Positions 5,346-62,200 of a DNA stretch of 64,000 nucleotides are shown here, one piece after another. The translations under genes were made by a program, and so were the position numbers. The notes under the pieces are model-generated. The model worked only from the letters and a program-made list of their open reading frames with translations, was not told where the DNA came from and made no database searches. Within the stretch, counting starts at the first letter, position 1. Each line of letters starts with the position of its first letter. This DNA comes from a virus: the IMG/VR virus record IMGVR_UViG_3300025834_000005. The stretch is one strand, 5' to 3'.

Positions 5346-5370
5346 CCTTTTATATTGTTTTACGTATAAC
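5341..5370 (+). promoter_or_regulatory. phage promoter-like bipartite motif
   Basis: TGTAACC 5341; TACGTATAAC 5361; ATG 5384. Confidence 0.7.
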
Positions 5371-5383
5371 TAAGAAAAAAGCT

Positions 5384-5689: not shown

Positions 5690-5759
5690 TAAGCTATTGC
5701 CATTGTAGACAGTATGATGCTTTTCAGATATCTTTAGTATTTATTATAAAATTAAAGAT

Positions 5760-6521
5760 ATGCGAGAAGAAATAATTCACGACTACGTGATTAATTTCAT
5801 GAGTACAACAGATTTAGCCACTAAATATAAATTAAATAGGGTAACAATTCAAAGATATTTAATTAAAGGCGGCGTAAGTCTGAGAAGAATTACCCCAAAG
5901 ACAAAGGTAAATCACTATTATTTTTCGAAATATAGTAAAGAAAATTGTTATTGGGCTGGCTTTATCTTAGCGGATGGTTATATCAGAACAAATAAAAGGT
6001 TTACATTATCCATAAAACTTCAAAAGGGCGACATAGATCATCTTGAAAAACTAAAAAATGATATTAAATTTGAAGGTAAAATAATTGAGAGACCCTTATA
6101 TGTAAATATTGACATATCATCAACCCAAATAGTTAAAGACCTTCAAGAAAATTTTGGCATTCACACGAAAAAATCACTTACCTGTGAAATATCGAGTAAA
6201 ATACCTCAAAAGTATCTTAAAGACTTTATTCGTGGGTATTTTGATGGCGATGGCTGTATTACGTATACAACCGTTGATACGATTAGCTTCGTGGGAACTG
6301 AAAAGACTGTAAATTTTATCAAAAATTTCATATATGAAACTGCTCGCATAAAATTAAGAAGTAAAAATTTACCCGATACTGTAGTAAATGGTAATATTTG
6401 TTGCATTTACTACAGCGGCAAAACAGCATATAGTTGCTTAAAATATCTATATGAAAATTCAACAACATATTTAAGTCGTAAATTTAAATTATATCAAGAG
6501 CTAATTAATAAATATCAATAA
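5760..6521 (+). CDS. LAGLIDADG homing endonuclease
   Basis: Two LAGLIDADG motifs, AGFILADGY and RGYFDGDGC; N-terminal HTH. Confidence 0.85.
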   Translation: MREEIIHDYVINFMSTTDLATKYKLNRVTIQRYLIKGGVSLRRITPKTKVNHYYFSKYSKENCYWAGFILADGYIRTNKRFTLSIKLQKGDIDHLEKLKNDIKFEGKIIERPLYVNIDISSTQIVKDLQENFGIHTKKSLTCEISSKIPQKYLKDFIRGYFDGDGCITYTTVDTISFVGTEKTVNFIKNFIYETARIKLRSKNLPDTVVNGNICCIYYSGKTAYSCLKYLYENSTTYLSRKFKLYQELINKYQ

Positions 6522-19372: not shown

Positions 19373-19439
19373 GGAGTTTTAGCTCAGTTTGATAGAGCGG
19401 TAGAAATACAGGTCAGAGGTTTGAATCCTCTACACTCCC
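19373..19439 (+). ncRNA. tRNA-like element lacking an anticodon arm
   Basis: Acceptor GGAGTTT/ACACTCC (1 mismatch). D arm GCTC-AGTTTGATA-GAGC. T arm AGAGG-TTTGAAT-CCTCT. Variable region AGGTC. Anticodon arm replaced by GTA-GAAA-TAC (19400-19409). Confidence 0.55.
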
Positions 19440-22085: not shown

Positions 22086-22218
22086 GGCAGAATAGCGGAA
22101 TTGGTAAACGCTATATCAGAACTATGGGCGACGTTTAACGATAAGGCAAACCCTAAATGTTTGATATAATCAGGGACTTATCGCTCTGAATTTATTGGTT
22201 CGAGTCCAATTTCTGCCA
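22086..22218 (+). tRNA. tRNA-Leu(UAA)-like gene, expanded to 133 nt
   Basis: Acceptor GGCAGAA/TTCTGCC. D region GCG-GAATTGGTAAA-CGC. T arm ATTGG-TTCGAGT-CCAAT. Anticodon hairpin CAAAC-CCTAAAT-GTTTG (22147-22163, C at position 33). 34 extra nt after the D arm; ~30-nt variable region. Confidence 0.55.
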
Positions 22219-22290: not shown

Positions 22291-22381
22291 GTCGAAGTAG
22301 CTCAGTTGGTTTAGAGCACCAGCATCGGTCTACGTTTACGTAACGTGTAGGGGGTCAGGGGTTCGAGTCCCTTTTTCGACA
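22291..22381 (+). tRNA. tRNA gene with a 16-nt insert in the anticodon-stem 5' strand
   Basis: Acceptor GTCGAAG/TTTCGAC, with canonical D and T arms. Deleting 22321-22336 gives stem CCTAC/GTAGG and loop GTAACGT (anticodon AAC). The unspliced alternative has a TTACGTA loop (ACG). Confidence 0.55.
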
Positions 22382-22735: not shown

Positions 22736-22777
22736 ACCTTCCATGCCTCTCCACGATGCACACTTGGAAGGTTTTTT
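22736..22777 (+). terminator. hairpin + T-run closing the tRNA-like cluster
   Basis: ACCTTCCA 22736-22743 pairs with TGGAAGGT 22765-22772, followed by TTTTT. Confidence 0.5.
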
Positions 22778-37771: not shown

Positions 37772-38755
37772 TTATCCCCTAAAATAGCTATCCCCTGCAA
37801 TTTGTTTTGCCTTGTCTTCGCTGCTGGTCTTAATATATCTAAAAAAGCTTTTCTCCGTTGTGTGTCCCGTTAGTGCCATAATCTCATATGTTCCCATCCT
37901 TGCGGTCTGGTACATGTTCGTGGCTGCACTACGTCGAGCTGTATGACTTGAAATAAGTTCCCATGCCTGCTTAGTCTCATAAATCAATTTACCGCCTTTC
38001 GTATAATTAAATTTCACATCCTCGTTAAATCCAATTAGTTTACAAATCTTTTTTATGCTTCTATTAAAGTATTGGATTGAAACTCCCGAATACAAATTTC
38101 CATTATATTTATTAAGAATTTCACGCACATAATCATGGATCGGAATAGTAATCCTTGTTTTTGTTTTCTTGACTATTTTTATGATAAAATCCTTTGTGAA
38201 ATTGTCCGTAGTCAAGGTGGAATAATCAGAAAAGCGTAATGCTGTCAAACATCCAACCACAAACAAATCTCTTATTTTCTCCTGCTTTTTAGTCAATCCC
38301 ATATAGTAATAAATTCTCGTGATTTTATTCATGCTCAGAAAAATCGAGAAAGTGTTTTCAAGCTTAATGCTAACGTCATCATAAGATGGATCAACTGCAT
38401 AGCCGTATTTTGCCGCTTTAGCCGCCATCGATTTAACAAGCGACAGCAAATTTGAGATGTAGTTTTGACGAAGATCATTCCCCTCAAGGTAAGTCACAAA
38501 ATCTTCAAGAAACTCCTCTCCAACAGAGTTCGTATAGATGTTGGCGTTGTATTGTTTCGAAAATGCGTTGAGATGTAGGATAAGGGTATTGTAGTTCTTC
38601 ACATACATTTCACTCATTCTATTTGATTTCCGCAGTGCAGTCACTGCAACAAAATCCGCAAAAAGTACGCCAGTTTTGGGTTCATTTTGTATTAAACGGT
38701 TAATGTAGTCCCGTTTGCCCGATAGGTCTTTTTCCACTTTTAAAGCTACGCTCAT
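37772..38755 (-). CDS. tyrosine recombinase / integrase (Bacteroidota-type)
   Basis: ALRFSD (Arg I), SHTARRS (H-x-x-R), GHTTEKSFFRYI (His/Tyr); N-terminal SAM-like domain. Confidence 0.85.
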   Translation of the reverse strand: MSVALKVEKDLSGKRDYINRLIQNEPKTGVLFADFVAVTALRKSNRMSEMYVKNYNTLILHLNAFSKQYNANIYTNSVGEEFLEDFVTYLEGNDLRQNYISNLLSLVKSMAAKAAKYGYAVDPSYDDVSIKLENTFSIFLSMNKITRIYYYMGLTKKQEKIRDLFVVGCLTALRFSDYSTLTTDNFTKDFIIKIVKKTKTRITIPIHDYVREILNKYNGNLYSGVSIQYFNRSIKKICKLIGFNEDVKFNYTKGGKLIYETKQAWELISSHTARRSAATNMYQTARMGTYEIMALTGHTTEKSFFRYIKTSSEDKAKQIAGDSYFRG

Positions 38756-45545: not shown

Positions 45546-46709
45546 ATGAGAACAAGTGTCGTACTCGGATTAGGATTCGGGGATGAAGGTAAGGGAAGTA
45601 TGGTAAACTTTCTATGTAAGGTACATAAAAATGAACGTCCATTGGTGGTTAGATTTAGTTCTGGACACCAAGTAGGTCATACCGTTGTCGAGGGTGATCT
45701 TAGACATGTTTTTTCAAATTTTGGGTCAGGGACTCTTAGTGATGTGCCAACATACTGGTCAGAGTATTGCACGATGAATCCATCAGCCATACGGTCAGAG
45801 GGCGAAGCATTAAAGAAGATGGGTGTATTTCCGACACTATATATTAACGATAATGCGATGGTTACAACACCATACGACATATTAAAGAATCGTATGTCAG
45901 AGACTAAGAATCGTCATGGCAGTGTTGGTGTTGGGTTTGGCTCGACTATTCAGCGTAATGAGGATCATTTCAAGCTATATGCCAGAGATTTGAAATTTCC
46001 TAAAATTCTTGATATTAAATTGAAACATATTGCCGAGATATATCATAAAAGCACTTTTGTCGAATATCCTGATGGTTATGTTGAGAAACTGATAAATAAT
46101 TTTAAGCTTGATTGCAAATATGTTGTAAATGAGCATATGTTTGTTTCTCGCATTAATGATGTTATATATGATAAGCAATTTGGACATTTAATATTCGAAG
46201 GAAACCAAGGTATCATGCTTGATCAGGATTATGGTTTCTTTCCAAATGTAACCAGATGCAATACAACGTCGAAAAATGCTTTTGAGATCATGAAAAAATA
46301 TGGTGTTCATACTGGCGAAACAAACGTTTACTATATGACACGTGCATATCAAACTCGTCATGGTAATGGTGAAATGATTAATGAGGGAATGGATGTGCAA
46401 TACATTGCTGAGAATCCTCTTGAAACCAACGTACAAGGCGAATTTCAAGGTAGTTTTAGGAAAGCACCTCTGGATTTACAGACAATTAAATATGCTTTAT
46501 CATGCGATAAAGTATATAATGACTATAGCATATCGAATCTTGTTATAACATGCATGGATCAAGTTCCTGAACGCATACCTATTATGAACGGCGATAAATT
46601 AGCTCACATGTATCCGTCACTAATAGGTTCTATTCTGAATATAAGACCCTTAAATATATTCATAAGTAAATCGGATAAAGGTGATTTTGAAAATGCAATG
46701 GATTTATGA
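45546..46709 (+). CDS. adenylosuccinate synthetase family protein (divergent PurA, or PurZ-like)
   Basis: GLGFGDEGKGSMV (P-loop), SSGHQVGHTV, GNQGIMLDQDYGFFPNVT, TRAYQTRHGNG. Confidence 0.8.
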   Translation: MRTSVVLGLGFGDEGKGSMVNFLCKVHKNERPLVVRFSSGHQVGHTVVEGDLRHVFSNFGSGTLSDVPTYWSEYCTMNPSAIRSEGEALKKMGVFPTLYINDNAMVTTPYDILKNRMSETKNRHGSVGVGFGSTIQRNEDHFKLYARDLKFPKILDIKLKHIAEIYHKSTFVEYPDGYVEKLINNFKLDCKYVVNEHMFVSRINDVIYDKQFGHLIFEGNQGIMLDQDYGFFPNVTRCNTTSKNAFEIMKKYGVHTGETNVYYMTRAYQTRHGNGEMINEGMDVQYIAENPLETNVQGEFQGSFRKAPLDLQTIKYALSCDKVYNDYSISNLVITCMDQVPERIPIMNGDKLAHMYPSLIGSILNIRPLNIFISKSDKGDFENAMDL

Positions 46710-48833: not shown

Positions 48834-50159
48834 ATGTTTGATTTAAAAGGAAAGCACACAGATGCTATTTTATATTTAGATAATTATGAGGACGGTTTAT
48901 TCGAGCAAATCTACCCAATCATTAACTCATATGTATCCAAAGGCTTAAAGGTTCGTATTATGCCAGATGCCCATATTGGTAAAGGTATCTGTATCGGTTT
49001 CACTATGGAATTGGGTCAGTATTTGAATCCGAACTGGTGTGGCGTTGATATTGGCTGCGGAATGCTGTCAGGCAGATTTAAAGCAAATGGCGTATTAGAC
49101 TTAGCCATGATCGATGAAAAGATCAAGAAATTAGTTCCTATGGGATTTAATGTTCATGAGGGTGCTAAGTCGAAAAAGATTCCATATGCCGAAGTACAGG
49201 AATTAGCGAACAAATTTGCTGAAAAGTATAATGAAAAGTTTGGTACTTCTTATGTTGCGCCTTCTTACAATGAGAAATGGCTGAAAACTAAGCTAAAGAC
49301 TATTGGTATGGATGCTGAGAAGTTATTCAAGTCAATCGGAACTTTAGGTGGTGGTAATCACTTCATTGAACTTGGGTATGACGAAGAGTCAAAGGATAAC
49401 TGGATTACAGTTCACTGTGGTTCAAGAAACTTAGGTGTTAAGGTATGTGAGTACTGGCTGAACCAAGCTAAAACACAGTCAAATGATACCTCACCTGAAT
49501 ATCTTGCGGAATTCGATGCTTTGGTTAAGAATACTGTGGATAGATCAACAATACCTCAGTTGATGAAGGAATTAAGAGAGAAATATAAAAAGGGTATTGA
49601 TCGTGATTACCTTTCAGATGAATTGTCCGTAGGATATTTGTTTGATATGATCTTTGCTCAAAAATATGCTGAATGGAATCGTCAGACTATACTTGATATA
49701 ATCCAAAAGATTTTGAAAGTGAAGGCTTTTGACGAAGTTATTTCATCAGTGCATAACTATGTCGACTTTCATGACTTCATCATCAGAAAAGGCTCTATTT
49801 CATCATATGTGGGTCAAAAAATGATTATTCCTTTTAATCAAAAGGATGGTATGCTTATCTGCGAAGGTAAATCAAATCCTGACTGGAATAACTCTGCGCC
49901 ACACGGAGCAGGTAGACTCTATTCAAGATCGAAAGCTAAGGAATTGATCACTCTTGAAATGGTTGAAGAATCAATGAAAGGAATCTATTCAACATCAGTA
50001 TGTAATTCGACTATTGATGAATCGGTTTTTGCCTACAAAGATTCTAAAATGATCGAAGAAGCGATTCAAGATACCGCAACAATTCTTCATAGGGTAAAAC
50101 CTATTTTGAATATTAAGGATTCAACAGCCGCTCCAAGACGTTCGAAGAAAAATCAGTAA
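48834..50159 (+). CDS. rtcB: RtcB RNA 3'-phosphate/5'-OH ligase
   Basis: CGVDIGCGM, TLGGGNHFIELG, HCGSRNLG, NSAPHGAGR. Confidence 0.9.
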   Translation: MFDLKGKHTDAILYLDNYEDGLFEQIYPIINSYVSKGLKVRIMPDAHIGKGICIGFTMELGQYLNPNWCGVDIGCGMLSGRFKANGVLDLAMIDEKIKKLVPMGFNVHEGAKSKKIPYAEVQELANKFAEKYNEKFGTSYVAPSYNEKWLKTKLKTIGMDAEKLFKSIGTLGGGNHFIELGYDEESKDNWITVHCGSRNLGVKVCEYWLNQAKTQSNDTSPEYLAEFDALVKNTVDRSTIPQLMKELREKYKKGIDRDYLSDELSVGYLFDMIFAQKYAEWNRQTILDIIQKILKVKAFDEVISSVHNYVDFHDFIIRKGSISSYVGQKMIIPFNQKDGMLICEGKSNPDWNNSAPHGAGRLYSRSKAKELITLEMVEESMKGIYSTSVCNSTIDESVFAYKDSKMIEEAIQDTATILHRVKPILNIKDSTAAPRRSKKNQ

Positions 50160-55958: not shown

Positions 55959-56114
55959 AAATACCCAACCCAAAAACAGAAATTGCTTATTGGGAAGAGG
56001 GACAGAAAAATCCATACCCTTGGTATAAGAAAGGGTTTTTCAAAAAGTATCTAAGAAAGAAATTTCTACGAAAAATATTCGCACAGGATAATAACAATCA
56101 TAAATAATAAAAAC

Positions 56115-56483
56115 ATGTATAAAGAGAACGAAGTAGAAGGAACTGTCTTAGAATTTGACGGCGAGGTAATTGCAACAGCTGAACAATGTAACGGCGAAAT
56201 AATTCCGACAAAGGAATTATCAAATAATAATGGTTCATTCAAAGGATTTAGTCCTGCTGAATATTATCTGTTAACAGTTAAGTCATTATTGCTATCGCAA
56301 TTATCATTAATGCGTAATGTATTCCCAGATAGTGACGCATGGTATTGCGGTTCAGCTATTATCGGCGATCTTAGCAATTGTAGAAATTTGAGTTTTGTAT
56401 TTGGCTCAGAAGAAGATGCCGAATCCATTAAAGAAGGCTCAGATGTTTACGTTGAATTACCTTATCCTGTAGTAAATGAATAA
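56115..56483 (+). CDS. hypothetical protein
   Basis: ORF track. Confidence 0.6.
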   Translation: MYKENEVEGTVLEFDGEVIATAEQCNGEIIPTKELSNNNGSFKGFSPAEYYLLTVKSLLLSQLSLMRNVFPDSDAWYCGSAIIGDLSNCRNLSFVFGSEEDAESIKEGSDVYVELPYPVVNE

Positions 56484-56694
56484 TTGGATTAAATTAGAAG
56501 CACAATTTCCAGCAAATGGTCGAGAGGTTATTTGCTGGAATGGCACATCTGCTGTAATGGCTATCTATTTCGATGGTATCGGAGGTGGCTTTCAGGCTCA
56601 ACGCTATGCGACAATTGGTGATAGAATATCAGTATTATACTGGAATAATGTAACTCATTGGATGCCAAAACCCTTAAAACCAGAGGAATTGTGA
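56476..56694 (+). CDS. hypothetical protein
   Basis: ORF track. Confidence 0.55.
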   Translation: MNNWIKLEAQFPANGREVICWNGTSAVMAIYFDGIGGGFQAQRYATIGDRISVLYWNNVTHWMPKPLKPEEL

Positions 56695-56963
56695 GCATAC
56701 TTCAAGATATCATCGAATCATATGATGACGAAACATTTTTAAAAGCCGATGGCTTCGACGAAGCAATTATAGGCGTTGATGAAGCCACTATGAGACTAAT
56801 CTATTCAGTATCCAAATGTTTGGATATATTAATCAAACGTGATGGACTGTTATGGGAAGAAGCTGTTGAGCATTTCAACTTCAATGTAAGCGGAGCATAT
56901 ATGGGTGTGAAAACGCCAATCTGGTGTGAAGATCAATTTGAATCCTTTCGTGATGAAAAATAA
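56658..56963 (+). CDS. hypothetical protein (alternative in-frame GTG start at 56691, GTGA overlap)
   Basis: ORF track. Confidence 0.55.
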   Translation: MDAKTLKTRGIVSILQDIIESYDDETFLKADGFDEAIIGVDEATMRLIYSVSKCLDILIKRDGLLWEEAVEHFNFNVSGAYMGVKTPIWCEDQFESFRDEK

Positions 56964-57008
56964 TCTACAATCACCCCGAAAAATATTTCGAAAATAATTA
57001 AAGATTTT

Positions 57009-57038
57009 TGTAACATTTGAAAAGTTCTTACGTATAAC
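57009..57038 (+). promoter_or_regulatory. phage promoter-like bipartite motif
   Basis: TGTAACA 57009; TACGTATAAC 57029; ATG 57068. Confidence 0.65.
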
Positions 57039-57067
57039 GAAGAAACAATAATTAAAACAATAAAAAT

Positions 57068-58501
57068 ATGAGTAAATTGAACCCTATTTTAAAAAGTGGC
57101 GTTTCTGATTTAAAATCAGATGAAAGACTTGCTGGTGGATTTGGAACCAGAGCAGCTAAACAAGACGAATTAGCTCTATTACGTAGAGTTGTTTTAGCGA
57201 ACCTATTATGGGAAAACATTGCGTATGCTAACGGTGAAGATGTTTCAACACAGATCAGCCAGTTGATTCCGCAATGTAATCCTCAAGATGTTGCTGATCT
57301 TGCTGTTGAGGCGAGACTTGAGCAGAAATTGCGTCATACTCCTTTGTTTATTTGTGTTGAAATGCTGAAACACGTTGGATATTCTGCGTTGGTTGCCGAT
57401 ATCTTACCAAAGATTATCACAAGAGCAGACATGATTACAGACTTTCTTGCTATCTACAAGAAACAGAATGGCGGTAAGCTAAAGCCTTTGGCTGCTGCTG
57501 CTAAGAAAGGTTTGGCGAAAGCATTCGATAACTTTAACGAATACCAATTCGCTAAATATGACAGGGATGCCGAGATCAAGTTAAGGGATGCTATGTTTTT
57601 AGCTCACCCAAAACCATCTTCACAGGAAAAGATTGAACTTTACAAGAAAGTTGCTGATCGTACTTTGAAAACTCCTGATACATGGGAAGTTGCTTTATCG
57701 ACAGGTAAAGATAAGAAAGCCACATGGGAGAGATTGATCGATGAAAAGAAAATCGGTGGTTTGGCAATGTTGCGCAATGTACGTAATATGGTTCAGTCGG
57801 GTGTTAACTCGAATAGCATTAGAAAGGGATTGAAAAATCTAAATAGTTCGATGTTATTGCCTTTCAATTTCTTAACAGCCTCAAGGTTTGCACCTGAGTA
57901 TTCGAGAGATATTGAGGATGCTATGGTTGAGTCTTATAAGAATCTTCCTAAATTATCTGGAAAGACATTATTCATTGTCGATATTTCAGGCTCAATGGGT
58001 GCTAAATTATCTGACAAGTCGGGAATGTCCAGAATGGATGCTGCTTGTGCAATGGCTATGCTTGCGATTAATCAATGTGAAAACTATGAAATCGTAGCAA
58101 CTGCTGGGAATGATGGTTCGCATAAAGGTGCTCATAAGCATATTCTAAATCCAAAAAAGGGATTCGATGTGTTCAAGCAAATTCAAAGTGCTGGAAGTGA
58201 AATCGGCTGTGGTGGTATTTTCACCAGACAGTGTATCGAATGGTGTAAAGCCAACGTATCTGATACATTCGACAGAATTATCATATTCTCTGACTCACAG
58301 GATTGCGATCTTATGAATGCGAGAATTCCAGCACCTTACGGCAAATATAACTATATTTGCGACGTATCGTCAAATGAGAGAGGCGTTAACTTTAGGAATG
58401 TATGGGATGCCGAAATTACAGGTATGTCTGAAAACTTCCTAACATATATCGCTGCAAACGAAGGTCTAACAAATAAATTTGACGACCAGAGTGAAAATTA
58501 A
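57068..58501 (+). CDS. rsr: Ro60 ortholog (TROVE domain + C-terminal vWA)
   Basis: TROVE signatures ...TPDTWEVALS..., GGLAMLRNVRNMVQSG; vWA MIDAS FIVDISGSMG. Confidence 0.85.
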   Translation: MSKLNPILKSGVSDLKSDERLAGGFGTRAAKQDELALLRRVVLANLLWENIAYANGEDVSTQISQLIPQCNPQDVADLAVEARLEQKLRHTPLFICVEMLKHVGYSALVADILPKIITRADMITDFLAIYKKQNGGKLKPLAAAAKKGLAKAFDNFNEYQFAKYDRDAEIKLRDAMFLAHPKPSSQEKIELYKKVADRTLKTPDTWEVALSTGKDKKATWERLIDEKKIGGLAMLRNVRNMVQSGVNSNSIRKGLKNLNSSMLLPFNFLTASRFAPEYSRDIEDAMVESYKNLPKLSGKTLFIVDISGSMGAKLSDKSGMSRMDAACAMAMLAINQCENYEIVATAGNDGSHKGAHKHILNPKKGFDVFKQIQSAGSEIGCGGIFTRQCIEWCKANVSDTFDRIIIFSDSQDCDLMNARIPAPYGKYNYICDVSSNERGVNFRNVWDAEITGMSENFLTYIAANEGLTNKFDDQSEN

Positions 58502-58504
58502 TCA

Positions 58505-58554
58505 ACAAAGGTACTATTTATACTTGCAAATTAAATATTAAATAGTACCTTTGT
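58505..58554 (+). terminator. 16-bp perfect hairpin with an 18-nt loop
   Basis: ACAAAGGTACTATTTA 58505-58520 pairs with TAAATAGTACCTTTGT 58539-58554. Confidence 0.55.
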
Positions 58555-58570
58555 AAAAATATTAAGTAAT

Positions 58571-58635
58571 AGCGTTCGGTAAGGGTTACTTCCTCCATAA
58601 ATGAAATCACACCCTACCATCAGTTCTTTGCTTAC
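58571..58635 (+). ncRNA. structured RNA module U1 (Y-RNA-like candidate)
   Basis: AGCGTTC + helix GGTAAGGGT (58578-58586) / ACCCTACC (58611-58618) + tail ATCAGTTCTTTGCTTAC. Confidence 0.5.
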
Positions 58636-58650
58636 AAAAATTTAGATAAT

Positions 58651-58720
58651 GGCGTTCGATACGGTTACTTCCTTTTACGAAATATTCACCGTATTATCTT
58701 TTTCCTTATCTATTTATATC
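58651..58720 (+). ncRNA. structured RNA module U2
   Basis: GGCGTTC + helix GATACGGT (58658-58665) / ACCGTAT (58688-58694) + tail TATCTTTTTCCTTATC... Confidence 0.5.
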
Positions 58721-58785
58721 GGAGTGTGTCTTGGCTTGTAATGCAGTATACGGTATTATATGAGGATCGTCCCCTCGCACACCGA
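58720..58785 (+). ncRNA. short tRNA-like element (acceptor/T-arm minihelix plus one hairpin)
   Basis: CGGAGTG/CACACCG (1 mismatch); T-arm-like TGAGG-ATCGTCC-CCTCG; no D arm. Confidence 0.25.
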
Positions 58786-58797
58786 CAAATGAATAAT

Positions 58798-58909
58798 GGC
58801 GTTAGAAACAGTTTCATCAACTCAATCTCAATAATTAAGATCAACTCAATCTCAATAATTAAGTAAATACAAAACTCTGTCTCTCATTTTCCTTATTCAT
58901 CTATATTAT
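58798..58909 (+). ncRNA. structured RNA module U3 (contains a 24-nt tandem duplication)
   Basis: GGCGTTA + helix GAAACAG (58805-58811) / CTGTCTC (58877-58883) + tail TCATTTTCCTTATTCATC... Confidence 0.45.
58817..58864 (+). repeat. tandem duplication 2 x 24 nt
   Basis: TCAACTCAATCTCAATAATTAAGA at 58817-58840 and TCAACTCAATCTCAATAATTAAGT at 58841-58864. Confidence 0.9.
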
Positions 58910-59033
58910 AGGGCGTTAGCTCAGTTGGTAGAGCGCGAAATTCTCTTTTACACCTTTTCCCTTTATTGTGGCGTTCGTAAAAGTTACTTCATTCTTAATG
59001 ACGAGGTCGGTGGTTCGAGTCCATCATGCCCTA
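58910..59033 (+). tRNA. tRNA-Lys(CUU)-like gene interrupted by a 51-nt insert in the anticodon stem
   Basis: Acceptor AGGGCGT/ATGCCCT. D arm GCTC-AGTTGGTA-GAGC. T arm GGTGG-TTCGAGT-CCATC. Variable region AGGTC. Deleting 58938-58988 gives stem CGTCA/TGACG and loop TTCTTAA. Confidence 0.65.
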
Positions 59034-59044
59034 CGAAAAACAAT

Positions 59045-59120
59045 AGTGTTCGAGACAGTTTCATCAAAAAAATCGAAATTTTTATACAAAAAACTCTGTC
59101 TTAACTGTTCTTTGTTTTTT
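59045..59120 (+). ncRNA. structured RNA module U5
   Basis: AGTGTTC + helix GAGACAG (59052-59058) / CTGTCTT (59096-59102) + tail AACTGTTCTTTGTTTTTTTT. Confidence 0.45.
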
Positions 59121-59128
59121 TTGAATAT

Positions 59129-59164
59129 AAAAGGTCAACATACTCAAAATATGTTGACCTTTTT
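59129..59164 (+). terminator. 13-bp hairpin + T-run abutting the promoter box 1
   Basis: AAAAGGTCAACAT 59129-59141 pairs with ATGTTGACCTTTT 59151-59163. Confidence 0.7.
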
Positions 59165-59194
59165 TGTAACCTTTTTTATCGAGTTACGTATAAT
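59165..59194 (+). promoter_or_regulatory. phage promoter-like bipartite motif
   Basis: TGTAACC 59165; TACGTATAAT 59185; ATG 59220. Confidence 0.7.
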
Positions 59195-59219
59195 ATAGAA
59201 ACAATTTAAATTTATTGAA

Positions 59220-59777
59220 ATGTTAAAAAATACTGAAATTAAGATCATCGACTTTAGAACGTCGTTAAACAAAGAAAACGAAAATGAATACGTTATTCAG
59301 CCTAATTATAAGGTTCAATACGAGAACGTTATAATTGAATTAAAAGGTAAAACATTTCTCGTTAATATTGGCTGTCAGAGTGTGACAATCAATAAGGATA
59401 ATGTATTACCAATCGCTCAAGAGTTTGAGGGTATCGATAAAAAACCAGTGCTTTACAAACTAATTTTGCCAAATGATGATAAACGTGAATTAAAATCAAT
59501 GAGAAATCTCCCAATATATAAAGAGTCTTCGCCATCCTTACACATATCGTCAAATGGTAAAGTTTATGACAGAGAGAAATTTAGCATCGTTGAAAAAACG
59601 ATAACGCCATCTAATGAGTATTTTAAGAAAAGTGATACGTTGAGCACTGTGCAATATTTAAAAAAAGACCGTAGATTGTACAGGGACGACATACAAAATA
59701 TAAGAAAAATTTTAAATACAATGTGCGATCATTTTAACATTGAATACCCTGACGTTAAAGACTCTAAAAATGAGTAG
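59220..59777 (+). CDS. hypothetical protein
   Basis: ORF track. Confidence 0.65.
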   Translation: MLKNTEIKIIDFRTSLNKENENEYVIQPNYKVQYENVIIELKGKTFLVNIGCQSVTINKDNVLPIAQEFEGIDKKPVLYKLILPNDDKRELKSMRNLPIYKESSPSLHISSNGKVYDREKFSIVEKTITPSNEYFKKSDTLSTVQYLKKDRRLYRDDIQNIRKILNTMCDHFNIEYPDVKDSKNE

Positions 59778-59907
59778 TTCCGAGGTTAAAATAGAGTTTC
59801 CATCGCCAAAATTAATCGCATGGCTGGTTGCGGAACGAAAGCGTCAAAAAGAGAAAATGGATATGTTAAAGATCACCGAAACAGATACAAATATAATAAG
59901 AAAATGA
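59770..59907 (+). CDS. small hypothetical protein (45 aa), alternative to the 5' part of track ORF 59820..60188
   Basis: Read by hand. ATG overlaps the upstream stop, and its TGA forms an ATGA overlap with in-frame ATG 59904 of the next ORF. Confidence 0.4.
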   Translation: MSSSEVKIEFPSPKLIAWLVAERKRQKEKMDMLKITETDTNIIRK

Positions 59908-60188
59908 AAAAAGCTAAAGAAGTTAATTTAAAAAAAATACTGGCACAAGTATTTGCCATTGCGGCTAATTCTGAATCGTTTTTATCACTCGGTTTGAAAG
60001 ATGAACAGTTATTACAGACAGTTGTATTAACCGCAATGAAAGAAGCCTGTGAGCAGACAATCAAGCTTTGTGTCGATAACGCTGCCGTCACAACAAAAAA
60101 AGTGCCTACTGGTAGTTTTGGTATATTCTATCCTTTAAAAATTGTCGATAAAAAATCAATAAAAAACACTTTAAAACAAATAGTATAA
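59904..60188 (+). CDS. hypothetical protein (the start could instead be 59820)
   Basis: Track ORF 59820..60188; its first 28 codons are low-complexity basic and overlap the 45-aa ORF. Confidence 0.5.
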   Translation: MKKAKEVNLKKILAQVFAIAANSESFLSLGLKDEQLLQTVVLTAMKEACEQTIKLCVDNAAVTTKKVPTGSFGIFYPLKIVDKKSIKNTLKQIV

Positions 60189-60189
60189 T

Positions 60190-60459
60190 ATGGAATTGAA
60201 AATGAATAGTAACTTCTCAGTGCTTTACGATGGTAAGCCAATGATGAAAGCAATTACAACCCAGAAAAGGGATATGACCGAAGATGAAAAAAGAAATTTC
60301 ATCGAAAAGTTGAATCTGGCGTATAAAACCGTCAACGAGCTTACTGATCAATTAGCCGAAATTTACAAGCTACACTCAAACAGAAATCTGAGCGATGCTA
60401 TGGTCTCTGCGGCTGAATGCCAACGATCTATAAATGTTTTTAACAGCTCCCTACAGTAA
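60190..60459 (+). CDS. hypothetical protein
   Basis: ORF track. Confidence 0.6.
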   Translation: MELKMNSNFSVLYDGKPMMKAITTQKRDMTEDEKRNFIEKLNLAYKTVNELTDQLAEIYKLHSNRNLSDAMVSAAECQRSINVFNSSLQ

Positions 60460-60650
60460 TGCCGATATTTAAAAGTGTTAAGGTGGAATTAGAAAATGGC
60501 GATATAGTTGATATCACTGATCTACCGCAAGATAAATATGAGTATTTCTTAAATATGATTGTTATGATAAACAATGCATACAGATTAATGATACTTAAAG
60601 GCGAAATAATTAATTCAAATAATTATGAATCACAACCCTTACAATCTTGA
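60459..60650 (+). CDS. hypothetical protein
   Basis: ORF track. Confidence 0.55.
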   Translation: MPIFKSVKVELENGDIVDITDLPQDKYEYFLNMIVMINNAYRLMILKGEIINSNNYESQPLQS

Positions 60651-60816
60651 AGTTGGCGACGAAGTCGTTTTAGACGCCGACTTTGCTAATCATGGTCTTG
60701 TTACTATTGAGTCATTCACGCCACTCAAACTATATGCTATGGTGCGATCAGGCACTACTTGCTGGGAAACTATGACAGGTAGATTAACTCCAAAAACAGA
60801 AAAAGATGTTAAATAA
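60625..60816 (+). CDS. hypothetical protein
   Basis: ORF track. Confidence 0.5.
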   Translation: MNHNPYNLEVGDEVVLDADFANHGLVTIESFTPLKLYAMVRSGTTCWETMTGRLTPKTEKDVK

Positions 60817-61186
60817 TGAGAAAATAAGTCTCTATGAGAAAATAGAAAGCCATCTTATTAATAAATTTAAGGATGATATGATCTCAGAATTAAAGAAAAA
60901 TAGGAATAAAGGCACTATTTTAGACATGACAGACTTTAACGCCATAATAGCTGAAATGGAGTATCATAAAGCCAAACTATTTTTAGCTATACGAGTAAAA
61001 AATGAAGGTGCTATACGTGAATATATTGCAGACACAGCTAATTATTTGTTCGCTATAGGTAATTTGTTCGGACTTTACGATGAAGAGGCTAATAATCCAG
61101 AAACATGCTTCGAAATTAATAAAGAAGCCGAATTATTCATAGAGATTCCAATTAACAAGAAATCATTAGGGCAAACTCTTATTTAA
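60806..61186 (+). CDS. hypothetical protein (weak all-alpha MazG-like pattern)
   Basis: ORF track; EMEYHKAKLF...IADTANYLF is only suggestive. Confidence 0.55.
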   Translation: MLNNEKISLYEKIESHLINKFKDDMISELKKNRNKGTILDMTDFNAIIAEMEYHKAKLFLAIRVKNEGAIREYIADTANYLFAIGNLFGLYDEEANNPETCFEINKEAELFIEIPINKKSLGQTLI

Positions 61187-61187
61187 A

Positions 61188-61430
61188 ATGGCATTATTAA
61201 CTGATAACTCTGATTTTAGTACCGTCTATTTCCGAATTATAACTGGAAACGATGGTGATTACTATCCGCAGATCATTTCTGAGGACGAAAATGGTAATCT
61301 GAATACGGCTGGTATAAGGGTTTGTATGAGCGGAGGAAATGCTCCTACTGATGTTAAATTGGCTATTGCTAATTTATACCGAGCATTGGAGAAACATCAT
61401 CTGAATGAATATCCAAATGATGCTCCATAA
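61188..61430 (+). CDS. hypothetical protein
   Basis: ORF track. Confidence 0.55.
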   Translation: MALLTDNSDFSTVYFRIITGNDGDYYPQIISEDENGNLNTAGIRVCMSGGNAPTDVKLAIANLYRALEKHHLNEYPNDAP

Positions 61431-61676
61431 TTACCAAGTCTTTTTATTAAAAAGATAAACAGGCATATACATCCATCCTGTAGGCCATTGACGATTATCC
61501 GTAACATTTGTATTTGGCGTAATCGGTGTAGATGCTATAATATTTCTGGGGTTCTTTGGATTAGAACGACCATTTCTCTCTTTAGTCTCAACCCCAACCG
61601 TTAATTTTATCATAAAGTATTTACATATAAATACGAAAATATGGATAATAGTTACTAATTTCTGTAACAAAAACAA
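61431..61676 (-). CDS. possible small minus-strand membrane protein
   Basis: Only ORF covering a 276-nt + strand gap; its start overlaps the + strand promoter motif, so it is doubtful. Confidence 0.3.
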   Translation of the reverse strand: MFLLQKLVTIIHIFVFICKYFMIKLTVGVETKERNGRSNPKNPRNIIASTPITPNTNVTDNRQWPTGWMYMPVYLFNKKTW

Positions 61677-61692
61677 TTTAATTACGTATAAA
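61663..61692 (+). promoter_or_regulatory. phage promoter-like bipartite motif
   Basis: TGTAACA 61663; TACGTATAAA 61683; ATG 61707. Confidence 0.65.
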
Positions 61693-61706
61693 AAGAAAAA
61701 AGAACT

Positions 61707-61952
61707 ATGATTTTTAAAAAAATTACAGATACATGTAAACCACCGTTTAATCAGCCAATACTTTTACTTGAAAGTAGAAATAAAGTAAATACAGTATCAA
61801 CAGGGCATTTAACGTCTATAGATGCAAAAGGCTTTAATTTCTCAACGTCAAATATGGGTGACATATTCGGCATATTCGGTTCGAATTTGAATCCATTTAA
61901 GCCGACGCATTGGTGTGAAATTATTATAGAATTGGAGGACTCATGTCAATAA
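61707..61952 (+). CDS. hypothetical protein
   Basis: ORF track. Confidence 0.55.
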   Translation: MIFKKITDTCKPPFNQPILLLESRNKVNTVSTGHLTSIDAKGFNFSTSNMGDIFGIFGSNLNPFKPTHWCEIIIELEDSCQ

Positions 61953-62200
61953 AACTAAATGACAGATGTGCCAATTTTAAAGTAGCCATGAATATCGCAG
62001 AAATGCCTGTTGATGACGTTGGTATCGAATTTATAGTAGGGGTGTTCGATCTCTTAAATCAAAAAAGAGGCGAAGCTACTATTAGAGAAATTTTAAAACT
62101 AAAAAATAAAATTATCAGTAAATATGTTGTAGACGCTCAACAACAGCAACTTAATAGCATGAATGATATAAATGACGAAAATATAAACGAAAATGAATAG
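61943..62200 (+). CDS. hypothetical protein
   Basis: ORF track. Confidence 0.55.
   Translation: MSIKLNDRCANFKVAMNIAEMPVDDVGIEFIVGVFDLLNQKRGEATIREILKLKNKIISKYVVDAQQQQLNSMNDINDENINENE

What the first reader, a model, noticed from the sequence alone, without database searches (positions are those of the whole stretch)
58910..59033. tRNA-Lys(CUU)-like gene split by a 51-nt intervening sequence inside the anticodon stem (position 28/29)
**Canonical parts.** The acceptor (AGGGCGT/ATGCCCT), D arm, variable loop (AGGTC) and T arm are all canonical. Between G26 and the variable loop, however, there are 68 nt where 17 are expected.

**Effect of removing the insert.** Deleting one contiguous block (58938-58988) leaves CG|TCA-TTCTTAA-TGACG. 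That is a perfect 5-bp anticodon stem with a textbook loop: U33, anticodon CUU, A37.

**Why it matters.** Bacterial and phage tRNA introns known to me are group I introns in the anticodon loop. A short insert in the stem is more like archaeal non-canonical introns. The same genome encodes RtcB, the ligase that seals tRNA exons in archaea and eukaryotes. The insert also carries one copy of the RNA module repeated next to the Ro60 gene, described in a separate finding.

**Alternative.** The RNA may never be spliced and may act as a tRNA-shaped scaffold.
Basis: partly seen in the sequence, partly recalled or inferred. Interest (0 to 1): 0.85.

Follow-up and report, generated by a model that had tools for sequence, protein, structure and literature searches.

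The report
tRNA-shaped Y RNA beside phage Ro60
The "split tRNA-Lys" is most likely an unspliced Y RNA: a whole tRNA with the Ro60-binding arm of bacterial YrlA RNAs built into its anticodon stem, a non-permuted YrlA form found in many phages (including crAss001) and in myxobacteria.

Summary
**Observation: confirmed.** Window 58910-59033 is a canonical tRNA body with 68 nt where 17 are expected. Deleting 58938-58988 restores a 5-bp anticodon stem and a CUU loop.

**Interpretation: the insert is not a plain intron.**
- It is one of five copies of an RNA module packed directly downstream of a Ro60 (TROVE) gene.
- The module has a lower stem with a bulged U, the motif RGYG, an internal loop, a 7-bp helix, then UUACUUC. 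The YrlA Y RNAs of Caulobacter phage CcrColossus have the same layout.
- The finding is therefore a circular permutation of YrlA. Its ends lie in the acceptor stem and the Ro60 stem is closed by a loop.
- Over 100 homologues were found in Ro60-encoding phages (crAss001, unannotated) and in Myxococcota.
- Both helices of the insert co-vary.
- No insert-less allele was found.
- About 40% of members cannot rebuild a canonical anticodon arm.
- Where the anticodon-like loop is canonical, it follows tRNA rules (U33, R37) but diverges about four times faster than the rest of the RNA.

**Best reading (0.75).** An unspliced, tRNA-shaped Ro60 ligand. Splicing is not excluded (about 0.07).

**Novelty.** A new variant of a known kind.

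The parts
57068..58501 (+). Ro60 (TROVE + vWA) gene. It is the presumed protein partner of the RNAs downstream.
   Evidence: Pfam TROVE E = 1.6e-16; vWA_Ro60 22.9 bits, below its cut-off. It is 60% identical to crAss001 gp96.
58505..58554 (+). Perfect 16-bp hairpin just after the Ro60 stop codon, with no T run behind it. It may be a processing or stability element.
   Evidence: Inverted repeat I1. No terminator call.
58564..58633 (+). Free-standing Y-RNA module 1. P1 is AAGUAA-U-AG / CU-UUGCUU and P2 is GGUAAGGGU / ACCCUACC. The motifs are AGCGUUCG and UUACUUC.
   Evidence: The MFE fold recovers P1 and P2. P2 co-varies with L001: GGCAUGGU/ACCAUGCC.
58644..58711 (+). Free-standing Y-RNA module 2. 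P1 is AGAUAA-U-GG / CC-UUAUCU and P2 is GAUACGG / CCGUAUU.
   Evidence: The MFE fold recovers P1 with its bulged U, and P2.
58720..58786 (+). Minihelix-like element with a 9-bp terminal stem and a T-arm-like hairpin. It sits between modules 2 and 3, in the same slot the chimera occupies between modules 3 and 5. It may be an RNase P punctuation signal.
   Evidence: The hairpin co-varies in L001: GAGG/CCUC becomes AAGG/CCUU. No Rfam or R1 hit.
58791..58898 (+). Free-standing Y-RNA module 3. P1 is GAAUAA-U-GG / CC-UUAUUC and P2 is GAAACAG / CUGUCUC. It carries the UUUCAUC variant of the motif, and its loop holds a 24-nt tandem duplication.
58910..59033 (+). THE FINDING: a tRNA-order YrlA-type chimera (124 nt).
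   Evidence: Rfam tRNA 42.6 bits. Model R1 139.5 bits.
58910..58937 (+). tRNA 5' half: acceptor 5' strand 58910-16, D arm 58919-34, G26 at 58935, and C27 G28 at 58936-37 (the base of the anticodon stem).
   Evidence: In 43 homologues the acceptor is 98% paired and the D stem 100% paired. The base stem is 93.6% paired with compensatory changes.
58938..58988 (+). The '51-nt insert', which is the Ro60-binding arm. In order: A-rich linker 58938-44; P2 3' strand CUUUUAC 58945-51; internal loop ACCUUUU; P1 CCC 58959-61 paired to G58968 and GG58970-71, with U58969 bulged; cap UUUAUU 58962-67; motif GGCGUUC 58970-76; P2 5' strand GUAAAAG 58977-83; UUACU 58984-88.
   Evidence: P2 is 97.7% paired with 5 of 7 pairs compensatory, and 6 of 7 compensatory in an independent set. 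The P1 R:Y pair co-varies in 56 of 58 cases. CcrColossus YrlAs have the same layout.
58989..59003 (+). Anticodon-like hairpin UCA-UUCUUAA-UGA, followed by C42 G43, which pair with C27 G28. It corresponds to the 'V' stem-loop of YrlA.
   Evidence: In 46 homologues with this geometry, U33 is present in 42 and R37 in 45.
59004..59033 (+). Variable loop AGGUC, T arm 59009-25, acceptor 3' strand 59026-32 and discriminator A 59033.
59038..59117 (+). Free-standing Y-RNA module 5. P1 is AAACAA-U-AG / CU-UUGUUU and P2 is GAGACAG / CUGUCUU. It starts 5 nt after the chimera.
59129..59170 (+). 14-bp hairpin followed by a T-rich run. It is the probable terminator of the ncRNA array.
   Evidence: Inverted repeat I2; sequence. 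The simple scan did not call it.
48834..50159 (+). RtcB RNA ligase. Context only; no direct link to the RNA is shown.
   Evidence: Pfam RtcB E = 4.4e-56.

Best explanation
**What it is.** 58910-59033 encodes an unspliced Y RNA of about 124 nt (plus CCA) belonging to the YrlA class, but in natural tRNA order. It is a complete tRNA with a Ro60-binding stem-loop growing out of the 5' strand of the anticodon stem, between positions 28 and 29. That stem-loop runs: P2 helix, internal loop, P1 with a bulged U, then the motifs RGYG and UUACUUC.

**Relation to YrlA.** It is the circular permutation of known YrlA RNAs. In YrlA the ends lie in the Ro60 stem and the acceptor stem is closed by a loop. Here the ends lie in the acceptor stem and the Ro60 stem is closed by a loop.

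**Proposed working (inferred).**
1. The Ro60 gene and a downstream array are transcribed together. The array holds four hairpin Y RNAs, a minihelix and this chimera.
2. The tRNA fold directs cleavage by RNase P at 58909/58910 and 3' trimming and CCA addition after 59033. These cuts also free the neighbouring Y RNAs.
3. The arm binds phage Ro60.
4. The L-shaped body, with a free acceptor end and an authentic-looking anticodon loop, engages a tRNA-recognising partner.

**Likeliest role (about 0.3 on its own).** A decoy or tether in the conflict over tRNA cleavage and repair, involving host anticodon nucleases and the phage RtcB and Rnl ligases. The anticodon-like loop keeps tRNA grammar yet turns over quickly between close relatives.

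**Shown versus inferred.**
- Shown: anatomy, conservation, covariation, linkage to Ro60, and shared architecture with YrlA.
- Inferred: Ro60 binding, processing, absence of splicing, and the role.
For: **1. Placement.** The chimera lies 409 nt downstream of a TROVE/Ro60 gene on the same strand. It sits among four free-standing copies of the same module. All four RGYG-N10-WUWCWUC matches in the 64-kb window fall within 58651-59065.

**2. The module is Y-RNA-like.**
- P1 has a bulged U. The MFE fold recovers P1 and P2 in modules 1-3.
- P1's R:Y pair co-varies: A:U 29, G:C 27, discordant 2.

**3. Same layout as YrlA.** CcrColossus YrlAs read: P1-U-GGCGUAG-P2-UUACUUC-hairpin-NN-AGGUC-T arm-closed acceptor-D arm-G-NN-AAAAAC-P2'-GUUCC-P1'. 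This is the chimera read from a different starting point. Rfam's YrlA consensus has GGCGAAUGC-helix-CUAC.

**4. Covariation in 43 distinct homologues.**
- 97.3% of cells are paired.
- 24 of 28 pairs have double changes.
- The score is 0.621, against 0.178 for shuffles and 0.09 or less for slid controls.
- P2, which lies inside the 'insert', has 5 of 7 compensatory pairs.

**5. Replication in an independent set.** A second set was retrieved by DNA pattern alone. Its score is 0.607 against 0.166, and P2 has 6 of 7 compensatory pairs.

**6. Ro60 linkage without using Ro60 as bait.** 20 of 23 pattern-retrieved viral loci have a Ro60 homologue (33-62% identity) on the same strand within about 0.8 kb. 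In Sorangium the chimera lies 131 nt upstream of a TROVE ORF.

**7. D stem.** GCUC/GAGC is almost invariant while the acceptor and T stems vary. Conserved D and T stems are also reported for YrlA (bioRxiv 10.1101/312249).

**8. Against splicing.**
- No insert-less allele.
- 34 of 80 members lack a restorable canonical anticodon arm.
- The insert is as conserved as the body.

**9. Loop behaviour.** U33 in 42 of 46 and R37 in 45 of 46, with tRNA-like 36/37 coupling. In close pairs the loop diverges 26.1% against 6.2% elsewhere.

**10. Literature.**
- YrlA's tRNA-like domain has been proposed to inhibit an anticodon nuclease competitively (PMC7790460).
- A Ro60-like protein of phage Bas63, encoded next to 'tRNA' genes, counters a defence system (PMC11482910).
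- TROVE is an early gene in crAss001 (PMC8375218).
Against: - No expression, processing or binding data exist for any member. Ro60 binding rests on linkage and on shared architecture with YrlA.
- The CcrColossus YrlAs are themselves bioinformatic calls, and they score below Rfam's YrlA threshold (42 bits or less against 69).
- The window's motif is GGCGUUCG, not the published GNCGAAN0-1G. Only 1 of 112 chimeras has the canonical motif.
- Rfam YrlA does not hit the window.
- The exact restoration of a natural Lys/Arg-type anticodon stem (CGUCA/UGACG also occurs in ordinary tRNA genes) is what a spliced tRNA would require. So are the good anticodon-loop grammar and the RtcB gene in the same genome.
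- Covariation within the insert does not by itself exclude excision.
- The CM alignments are fitted to the structure.
- The close-pair comparisons are not independent.
Confidence: 0.75

Rival explanations
1. **True intervening sequence.** The 51-nt arm is cut out at 28/29 and the exons are joined, for example by the phage RtcB. The products would be a decoding tRNA-Lys(CUU) and a free or circular mini Y RNA.
For: - Removing 58938-58988 gives a perfect 5-bp stem and a textbook loop.
- The same operation works in L001, L005, L010a and many other homologues.
- Loops follow tRNA rules: U33 in 42 of 46 and R37 in 45 of 46.
- CGUCA/UGACG is a natural Lys/Arg anticodon stem.
- RtcB is encoded in the window.
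- In relatives the same module sits at a second site, the D loop, of otherwise complete tRNAs. That pattern recalls the multi-site archaeal introns.
Against: - No bulge-helix-bulge can be drawn. The junction flanks AAAUUCU and GUUACU stay unpaired in the MFE fold.
- No known bacterial or phage endonuclease for such a cut is known (own knowledge).
- The insert's sequence motifs are conserved across Ro60s only 33-40% identical, and they equal the integral Ro60 stem of YrlA.
- No insert-less allele.
- 34 of 80 members cannot restore a canonical arm.
- One tRNA body carries Lys, His, Ser or Glu anticodons in close relatives. This is unlike orthologous decoding tRNAs.
- Myxobacterial copies sit next to Ro60 in chromosomes.
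Confidence: 0.07
2. **Processing and stability scaffold only.** The tRNA part exists to recruit RNase P, RNase Z and the CCA-adding enzyme and to stabilise the Ro60-binding arm. It punctuates the polycistronic Y-RNA array and has no partner of its own.
For: - Packing is tight. Module 3 ends 11 nt before the chimera and module 5 starts 5 nt after it.
- A minihelix-like element fills the equivalent slot between modules 2 and 3.
- M. smegmatis YrlA is cut by RNase P and receives CCA (PMC4201824).
- Engineered tRNA scaffolds stabilise inserted RNAs (own knowledge).
Against: - It does not explain why the anticodon-like loop keeps U33, R37 and the 36/37 coupling while changing fast.
- It does not explain why the D stem sequence is nearly invariant when the other stems drift.
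- The free-standing modules in the same array manage without a tRNA body.
Confidence: 0.15
3. **Decayed tRNA gene.** A repeat copy landed in the gene by chance, and the result has no function.
For: ARAGORN does not call it. Folding energy is not better than shuffles.
Against: The architecture is kept, with compensatory changes, in more than 100 sequences from distant phages and from Myxococcota. It is always found beside Ro60.
Confidence: 0.02

Closest known systems
YrlA (Y RNA-like A; Rfam RF02553; Chen et al. 2014, PMC4201824; structure in bioRxiv 10.1101/312249)
   Same: - Encoded beside Ro60 on the same strand.
- Ro60 stem with an RGYG/GNCG-type motif on its 5' strand, followed by YUAY (here UUAC).
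- tRNA-like D and T arms with the tertiary-contact nucleotides, and a conserved GCUC/GAGC D stem.
- An optional small 'V' hairpin between the Ro60 stem and the T arm.
- CcrColossus YrlAs share the module nearly motif for motif.
   Different: - The topology is not permuted. The 5' and 3' ends lie in a 7-bp acceptor stem with discriminator A73, and the Ro60 stem is capped by a hexaloop.
- It keeps a 7-nt anticodon-like loop, whereas S. Typhimurium YrlA has none.
- The motif is GGCGUUCG rather than GNCGAAN0-1G.
- Rfam's YrlA model gives no hit.
Deinococcus radiodurans Yrn1 Y RNA
   Same: A Ro60-bound Y RNA with a T-arm-like hairpin and a possible anticodon-like arm (PMC4201824).
   Different: In Yrn1 the Ro60 stem takes the acceptor position and the D arm is doubtful. 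Here the acceptor stem is free and every tRNA arm is canonical.
Archaeal non-canonical tRNA introns and permuted/split tRNA genes (BHB motif, EndA, RtcB)
   Same: A short insert at a non-canonical site in a tRNA (28/29; the D loop in relatives). RtcB is present in the genome. The relation to YrlA is a circular permutation.
   Different: - No BHB motif.
- No endonuclease identified.
- The insert has conserved protein-binding-type motifs that are shared with free-standing RNAs.
- No intron-less alleles.
Group I introns in bacterial and phage tRNA genes
   Same: They interrupt the anticodon region of a tRNA gene.
   Different: The insert is 51 nt, whereas group I introns exceed 200 nt. It lies in the stem, not the loop. 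It has no P1-P9 core and gives no Rfam intron hit.
tRNA-scaffolded or tRNA-linked small RNAs (engineered tRNA scaffolds; gammaherpesvirus 68 tRNA-miRNA units; tmRNA)
   Same: A tRNA fold is used to process, stabilise or deliver a second functional RNA module.
   Different: Here the passenger is a Ro60-binding arm placed inside the anticodon stem, and the anticodon-like loop is kept. These comparisons come from my own knowledge and were not tested here.

Membership tests
YrlA / bacterial Y RNA | Encoded within about 4 kb of a Ro60 (TROVE) gene, on the same strand | tested here: met
   409 nt downstream of the TROVE ORF 57068-58501, same strand. The same holds in 20 of 23 pattern-retrieved viral loci and in Sorangium.
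YrlA / bacterial Y RNA | GNCGAAN0-1G motif on the 5' strand of the Ro60-binding stem | tested here: inconclusive
   The window has GGCGUUCG: GNCG, then UU where AA is expected. Family variants include GGUGUAG, GGCGUAG, AGCGAAG and GGCGAAG. Only 1 of 112 is strictly canonical. CcrColossus YrlAs have GGCGUAG.
YrlA / bacterial Y RNA | Conserved YUAY directly after the Ro60 stem | tested here: met
   UUAC at 58984-87. The family has UUACUUC in 94 of 112 and AUACUUC in 16 of 112. The Rfam consensus is CUAc.
YrlA / bacterial Y RNA | tRNA-like D and T arms with the tertiary-contact nucleotides | tested here: met
   Rfam tRNA 42.6 bits. U8, A14, G15:C48, G18G19, G53:C61 and U54U55C56 are read directly.
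YrlA / bacterial Y RNA | Circularly permuted order: ends in the Ro60 stem and the acceptor stem closed by a loop | tested here: not met
   The order is acceptor, D arm, Ro60 arm, T arm, acceptor. P1 is capped by UUUAUU.
YrlA / bacterial Y RNA | Reaches the Rfam RF02553 gathering score (69 bits) | tested here: not met
   No YrlA hit at E up to 10 in 56000-62000. The only related signal is a 22.6-bit, E = 1.1 match across a tandem chimera junction in L010. The CcrColossus YrlAs themselves score only 30-42 bits.
YrlA / bacterial Y RNA | Bound by Ro60 in vivo | not testable with these tools
   Requires RIP or EMSA.
Canonical decoding tRNA | Cloverleaf with 7-bp acceptor, D arm, T arm and a 4-5-nt variable loop | tested here: met
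Canonical decoding tRNA | Continuous 5-bp anticodon stem with a 7-nt loop in the primary transcript | tested here: not met
   51 nt interrupt the 5' strand between positions 28 and 29. ARAGORN makes no call.
Canonical decoding tRNA | Anticodon identity stable among orthologues; aminoacylation | tested here: not met
   Stability fails. The same body carries UUU, GUG, GCU or UUC, and the window (CUU) differs from L001 (CCU). Aminoacylation cannot be tested here.
Archaeal-type (BHB) tRNA intron | Bulge-helix-bulge at the two junctions | tested here: not met
   The flanks AAAUUCU (58938-44) and GUUACU (58983-88) cannot form the 4-bp central helix, and both are unpaired in the MFE folds.
Archaeal-type (BHB) tRNA intron | Splicing endonuclease encoded or available | not tested
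   Only selected ORFs were scanned. None of them is an EndA-like protein.
Archaeal-type (BHB) tRNA intron | RtcB-type ligase available | tested here: met
   RtcB at 48834-50159.
Archaeal-type (BHB) tRNA intron | Intron-less alleles or orthologues exist | tested here: not met
   None for 54 bodies in about 90 loci. The spliced-form pattern gives 0 hits in IMG/VR. Its 9 metagenome hits are unrelated cellular tRNAs, 53-77% identical.
Group I intron in a tRNA gene | More than 200 nt with a P1-P9 core, inserted in the anticodon loop | tested here: not met
   The insert is 51 nt and lies in the stem. No Rfam intron family matches.

The most novel reading that the evidence does not exclude
The Ro60-binding arm is a true excisable element. 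Phages and some bacteria would cut it out of tRNA precursors at non-canonical sites (28/29 here; the D loop in crAss-like relatives). An RtcB-type ligase would then reseal the exons. Each gene would yield both a working tRNA and a (possibly circular) mini Y RNA. This would be a bacterial and phage counterpart of archaeal tRNA splicing, tied to Ro60.
Probability: 0.07. Interest if true: 0.95.

Novelty: new variant of a known kind. Interest (0 to 1): 0.62.

Why it matters
**Origin of YrlA.** YrlA RNAs have been described as circularly permuted tRNA mimics without a free CCA end or an anticodon loop. This RNA is the unpermuted counterpart: a full tRNA with free acceptor ends and an anticodon-like loop, carrying the same Ro60 arm. 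That suggests a concrete route for the origin of YrlA. First a tRNA gains a Ro60 arm. Tandem copies then arise, as seen in L010. The permuted unit would be read across the junction between two copies.

**What Ro60 RNPs present.** In phages, Ro60 RNPs may display authentic, fast-changing anticodon loops. This points to the contest over tRNA cleavage and repair.

**Testability.** The family is common but unannotated. It occurs in at least 119 viral contigs and in crAss-like gut phages, including the cultured crAss001, and also in Myxococcota. The idea can therefore be tested directly in an existing phage-host pair.

**Annotation.** Such loci are currently missed or mislabelled as tRNA genes.

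Tried and rejected
- **Megablast of 57000-60000 against GenBank phages:** no match.
- **ARAGORN:** no tRNA or tmRNA in the window.
- **Single-sequence folding** of the chimera, the insert and the whole array: energies no better than shuffles. All support comes from comparison with relatives.
- **Promoter and terminator scan:** nothing useful.
- **Rfam at permissive E-values around the locus:** only the tRNA hit. No YrlA, Y_RNA, ribozyme or intron family.
- **MAFFT alignment of six chimeras:** it misaligned P2 in L003 and L005. I built the model from four sequences instead and let Infernal realign.
- **First automatic search for the helix partner:** allowing G-U gave chance 7/7 matches in AT-rich sequence. 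I replaced it with scored searches and checks against relatives.
- **First version of the loop parser:** it picked a false motif in the acceptor strand. Fixed.
- **Intron-less allele searches:** negative.
- **BHB motif:** cannot be drawn.
- **Literature search** for tRNA-order Y RNAs or for Y RNAs of crAss-like phages: nothing found in the held library. Two Wolin-lab reviews could not be opened. The supplements of Chen 2014 are not held, so I cannot exclude that some of their 276 'YrlA-related' hits were of this type.
- **Most of the 120 genome-contig pattern hits:** the model did not confirm them as chimeras. Only 11 long hits were confirmed, so the pattern count overstates the bacterial spread.
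Full report
**1.
- Rfam's tRNA model matches window 58910-59033 (+) over its full length. The score is 42.6 bits against a gathering score of 29, E = 1.1e-5. The model skips 64 nt where it expects 13.
- ARAGORN calls no tRNA in the whole window.
- Read directly, the RNA has:
  - acceptor AGGGCGU/AUGCCCU;
  - U8, A14, G15:C48, G18G19 and A21;
  - variable loop AGGUC;
  - T arm GGUGG-UUCGAGU-CCAUC;
  - discriminator A, with no encoded CCA.
- Between G26 (58935) and the variable loop (59004) lie 68 nt.
- RtcB is present at 48834-50159 (Pfam E = 4.4e-56). An Rnl-type RNA ligase lies at 4317-5345.

**2. The surroundings change the picture.**
- The ORF just upstream, 57068-58501 (+), is a Ro60 homologue (TROVE E = 1.6e-16).
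- The 720-nt gap after it holds five copies of one module, at 58570, 58650, 58797, 58969 and 59044. The copy at 58969 lies inside the 'insert'.
- All four strict matches to RGYG-N10-WUWCWUC in the 64-kb window fall within 58651-59065.
- The four free-standing copies share one plan:
  - a 6-bp stem;
  - a bulged U;
  - an RG:CY pair step (together, P1);
  - an asymmetric internal loop (CGUUC on the 5' side, N3-4 (G/U)UU on the 3' side);
  - a 7-9-bp helix (P2);
  - UUACUUC, or UUUCAUC, opening the terminal loop.
- Examples of P1: AGAUAA-U-GG/CC-UUAUCU, GAAUAA-U-GG/CC-UUAUUC, AAGUAA-U-AG/CU-UUGCUU and AAACAA-U-AG/CU-UUGUUU.
- A long stem with a bulge and an internal loop, encoded beside Ro60, is the hallmark of a Y RNA (PMC4201824).

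**3. Inside the chimera the same module is turned inside out.**
- First comes the P2 3' strand (CUUUUAC, 58945-51), then ACCUUUU.
- P1 follows: CCC 58959-61 pairs with G58968 and GG58970-71, with U58969 bulged. A UUUAUU cap closes it.
- Then come GGCGUUC, the P2 5' strand (GUAAAAG, 58977-83) and UUACU.
- The arm therefore hangs from the 5' strand of the anticodon stem.
- The 3' strand (39-43) runs unbroken through a 3-bp hairpin (UCA/UGA) and the 2-bp base (C27G28:C42G43).
- The unspliced RNA can thus be drawn as a full tRNA with one extra arm at a three-way junction.

**4. Relatives.**
- A search with the Ro60 protein found 11 and then 80 viral loci.
- I built covariance model R1 from four chimeras. 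It found 213 matches, about 50 of them strong 122-145-nt chimeras next to Ro60 on the same strand.
- On 43 distinct sequences:
  - 97.3% of pair cells are standard pairs;
  - 24 of 28 pairs show changes on both sides;
  - the covariation score is 0.621, against 0.178 in shuffles and at most 0.09 with slid partners.
- P2, inside the supposed intron, is 97.7% paired with 5 of 7 compensatory pairs. The 2-bp base stem is 93.6% paired. The small hairpin is 86.9% paired.
- The R of RGYG co-varies with the Y after UUC: A:U 29, G:C 27, discordant 2. This supports P1.
- The CM alignment is fitted to the structure, which inflates the paired percentages somewhat. The slid controls and the compensatory counts argue that the signal is real.

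**5. Independent replication.**
- I searched collections with a DNA pattern that uses no protein and demands no complementarity: GTAGAGC..TTCY..RGYG-N10-WTACTTC. It hit at least 119 viral contigs and at least 120 genome contigs.
- *Viral contigs.*
  - In 58 viral loci not seen before, R1 confirmed 27 chimeras in 23 loci.
  - A tblastn search found Ro60 (33-62% identical to the window's) in 20 of those 23 loci. It was always on the same strand and within about 0.8 kb.
  - Covariation repeats in this set: score 0.607 against 0.166, and P2 has 6 of 7 compensatory pairs.
- *Genome contigs.*
  - Only 11 long hits were confirmed.
  - Ten are in Myxococcota: Polyangium (three copies), Sorangium (three), and four further contigs labelled Myxococcota, Nannocystaceae, Polyangia and Polyangiaceae.
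  - One is in a Bacteroidota MAG.
  - In Sorangium the chimera lies 131 nt upstream of a TROVE ORF on the same strand.
- *crAss001.* The cultured phage has a chimera at NC_049977.1 complement 96453..96596, in a 900-nt stretch after gp96 (TROVE) that carries no annotation.

**6. Relation to YrlA.**
- Rfam holds YrlA (RF02553).
- PMC12135203, citing Chen et al. 2014, lists Caulobacter phage CcrColossus among phages with Y RNA-like ncRNAs and a Ro60 homologue. Several sub-threshold YrlA matches lie upstream of its Ro60 gene.
- Their sequence reads:
  - P1, U, GGCGUAG, P2 (7 nt), UUACUUC;
  - a 3-bp hairpin with a 7-nt loop, NN, AGGUC;
  - T arm, closed acceptor, D arm (GUAGCUCA..GGUAGAGC);
  - G, NN, AAAAAC, P2', nnnGUUCC, P1'.
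- That is the window's chimera read from another starting point, down to the A-rich linker after position 28 and the GUUCC before P1.
- Rfam's consensus shows the same order: GGCGAAUGC-helix-CUAC.
- So the finding is a YrlA-type RNA that is not circularly permuted.
[quoted passage not shown] This RNA has a 7-bp acceptor stem with free ends and a discriminator, and it keeps a 7-nt loop.
- Fittingly, Rfam's YrlA model gives a weak match across the junction of two tandem chimeras in L010 (22.6 bits, E = 1.1, not significant). It gives none to the window.
- The nearly invariant GCUC/GAGC D stem matches the D and T stem conservation reported for YrlA.

**7. Intron or integral arm?**

Against splicing:
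- (a) The arm's motifs are kept across Ro60s that are only 33-40% identical, and they equal an RNA part that is integral in YrlA.
- (b) Between the window and L001 the insert differs at 5 of 51 positions, all in linkers or loops. The tRNA body differs at 9 of 73.
- (c) For 54 distinct tRNA bodies, no copy without the insert exists in about 90 loci.
- (d) The spliced-form pattern has no hit in IMG/VR. Its nine metagenome hits are ordinary cellular tRNA-Arg(CCU) and tRNA-Lys(UUU) genes, 53-77% identical to the spliced window sequence.
- (e) No bulge-helix-bulge can be drawn at the junctions.
- (f) 34 of 80 distinct chimeras, including crAss001's, cannot restore a canonical anticodon arm.

For splicing:
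- The restoration is exact.
- CGUCA/UGACG is a natural Lys/Arg anticodon stem.
- RtcB is present.
- Crass-like relatives carry a second type, with the same arm in the D loop of otherwise complete tRNAs.

I put splicing at about 0.07.

**8. The anticodon-like loop.**
- In the 46 chimeras with the canonical geometry, U33 occurs in 42 and a purine at position 37 in 45.
- Positions 36 and 37 are coupled as in real tRNAs: U36-A37 in 24, G36-G37 in 11, C36-A37 in 5 and A36-A37 in 4.
- 23 different anticodons occur.
- One tRNA body (GAGGAGU...ACUCCUCC) carries UUU, GUG, GCU or UUC in close relatives. The window has CUU where L001 has CCU.
- In 23 pairs that differ by 12% or less elsewhere, the loop differs at 26.1% of sites against 6.2% (Fisher p = 2e-14; the pairs are not independent).
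- The loop is therefore kept tRNA-like while its identity turns over. This is odd for orthologous decoding tRNAs. It is expected if the loop is presented to something that reads anticodon loops.

**9. Mechanism, with shown and inferred steps marked.**
- *Shown:* anatomy, conservation, Ro60 linkage, and shared architecture with YrlA.
- *Inferred:*
  - The array 58564-59117 is transcribed with or after Ro60 and ends at the hairpin and T run at 59129-59170.
  - The tRNA fold directs RNase P cleavage at 58909/58910 (the -1 base is U) and 3' trimming and CCA addition after 59033. These cuts also release module 3, which ends 11 nt upstream, and module 5, which starts 5 nt downstream.
  - The arm binds phage Ro60.
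  - The tRNA body recruits a tRNA-recognising partner.
- *Favoured role (about 0.3):* a decoy or tether in tRNA damage and repair. The supports are:
  - the behaviour of the loop;
  - the RtcB and Rnl genes;
  - early expression of TROVE in crAss001 (PMC8375218);
  - the suggestion that YrlA's tRNA-like domain competes with an anticodon nuclease (PMC7790460);
  - the Ro60-like anti-defence protein of phage Bas63, which is encoded next to 'tRNA' genes (PMC11482910).
- A pure processing-scaffold role is possible (0.15) but leaves the loop grammar and the D-stem invariance unexplained.

**10. Novelty and limits.**
- I found no description of tRNA-order Y RNAs, or of Y RNAs in crAss-like phages, in the held literature.
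- I could not read two reviews or the supplements of Chen 2014. Earlier sightings therefore cannot be excluded.
- I file it as a new variant of a known kind: YrlA-class, unpermuted, and keeping an anticodon-like loop.
- It fails two defining YrlA features, the permuted order and the Rfam score. Its motif only partly fits GNCGAAN0-1G.
- It works like a YrlA by every feature I could test, but it is not a member as the family is now defined.
- No expression or binding data exist.

Noticed in passing
window 19373-19439 (+): A 67-nt tRNA-like RNA with acceptor, D and T arms. Its anticodon arm is replaced by a 3-bp hairpin with a GAAA tetraloop (GUA-GAAA-UAC). R1 scores it 46 bits. ARAGORN and Rfam (at gathering score) do not call it.
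   Followed up: partly
window 22086-22218 (+): A 133-nt tRNA-like RNA (GGCAGAA/UUCUGCC acceptor, D and T arms) with about 75 nt between the D and T arms. That stretch folds into two hairpins (z = -2.8). It does not carry the Ro60-type module.
   Followed up: partly
window 22291-22381 (+), ~22625 and 22737-22772 (+): Three further RNA signals lie in an ORF-poor stretch (19.3-22.8 kb) that looks like a second ncRNA island:
- An Rfam tRNA hit (45 bits) with 29 nt where 13 are expected, i.e. an extended anticodon arm.
- An isolated T-arm-like GGGUUCGACUCCC.
- An abiF RNA match (RF03085, 40.5 bits).
   Followed up: no
window 58720-58786 (+): A minihelix-like element with a 9-bp terminal stem and a T-arm-like hairpin that co-varies in L001. 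It lies between Y modules 2 and 3, in the slot a tRNA would occupy. It may be an RNase P substrate that punctuates the array.
   Followed up: partly
L033:4314-4445, L082:4261-4399, L056:4185-4322, L092 (crAss001) 5448-5586 and others: A second chimera type in crAss-like relatives. These are complete tRNAs with a 5-bp anticodon stem and a 7-nt loop (UGU, UGG, GGU, GUA, GAU, AGG and others). The same Ro60-type arm is inserted in the D loop. The 3' half of the D loop often appears twice (for example AAUGGUUAAAGCA ... AAGGUUAUAGCA). The window has none of these.
   Followed up: partly
L034:4705-4857: A 153-nt hybrid with the 5' half of an anticodon-stem-type chimera joined, at the shared module, to the 3' half of a D-loop-type chimera. 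It looks like a deletion by recombination between neighbouring chimeras.
   Followed up: no
L093 (CcrColossus NC_019406.1) 2053-2120; L092 (crAss001) 4920-5824: Two annotation points:
- The 'tRNA-Gln' annotated in CcrColossus is the 5' part of a YrlA-type RNA (Ro60 motif + UUACUUC + hairpin + T arm), not a tRNA.
- In crAss001 the 900 nt after gp96 that hold both chimeras carry no annotation.
   Followed up: partly
window 58816-58863 (+): A perfect 24-nt tandem duplication (AUCAACUCAAUCUCAAUAAUUAAG, twice) inside the terminal loop of Y module 3. L001 lacks it.
   Followed up: no
window 58505-58554 (+): A perfect 16-bp hairpin with an 18-nt loop starts 4 nt after the Ro60 stop codon and has no T run behind it. 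L001 keeps it with small changes. Its function is unknown.
   Followed up: no
window 4317-5345 (+), 14583-15716 (+), 37772-38755 (-), 45546-46709 (+): Other genes identified in the window:
- An Rnl-type RNA ligase, giving a second RNA ligase alongside RtcB.
- A glutathionylspermidine synthase homologue.
- A tyrosine integrase on the opposite strand.
- An adenylosuccinate synthetase homologue.
   Followed up: no
L005:4415-4560 and L010:2818-2888: Classical permuted YrlA-type units (motif, P2, UUACUUC, T arm, closed acceptor, D arm, P2') lie right beside tRNA-order chimeras in the same loci. Both topologies therefore coexist in one phage.
   Followed up: partly
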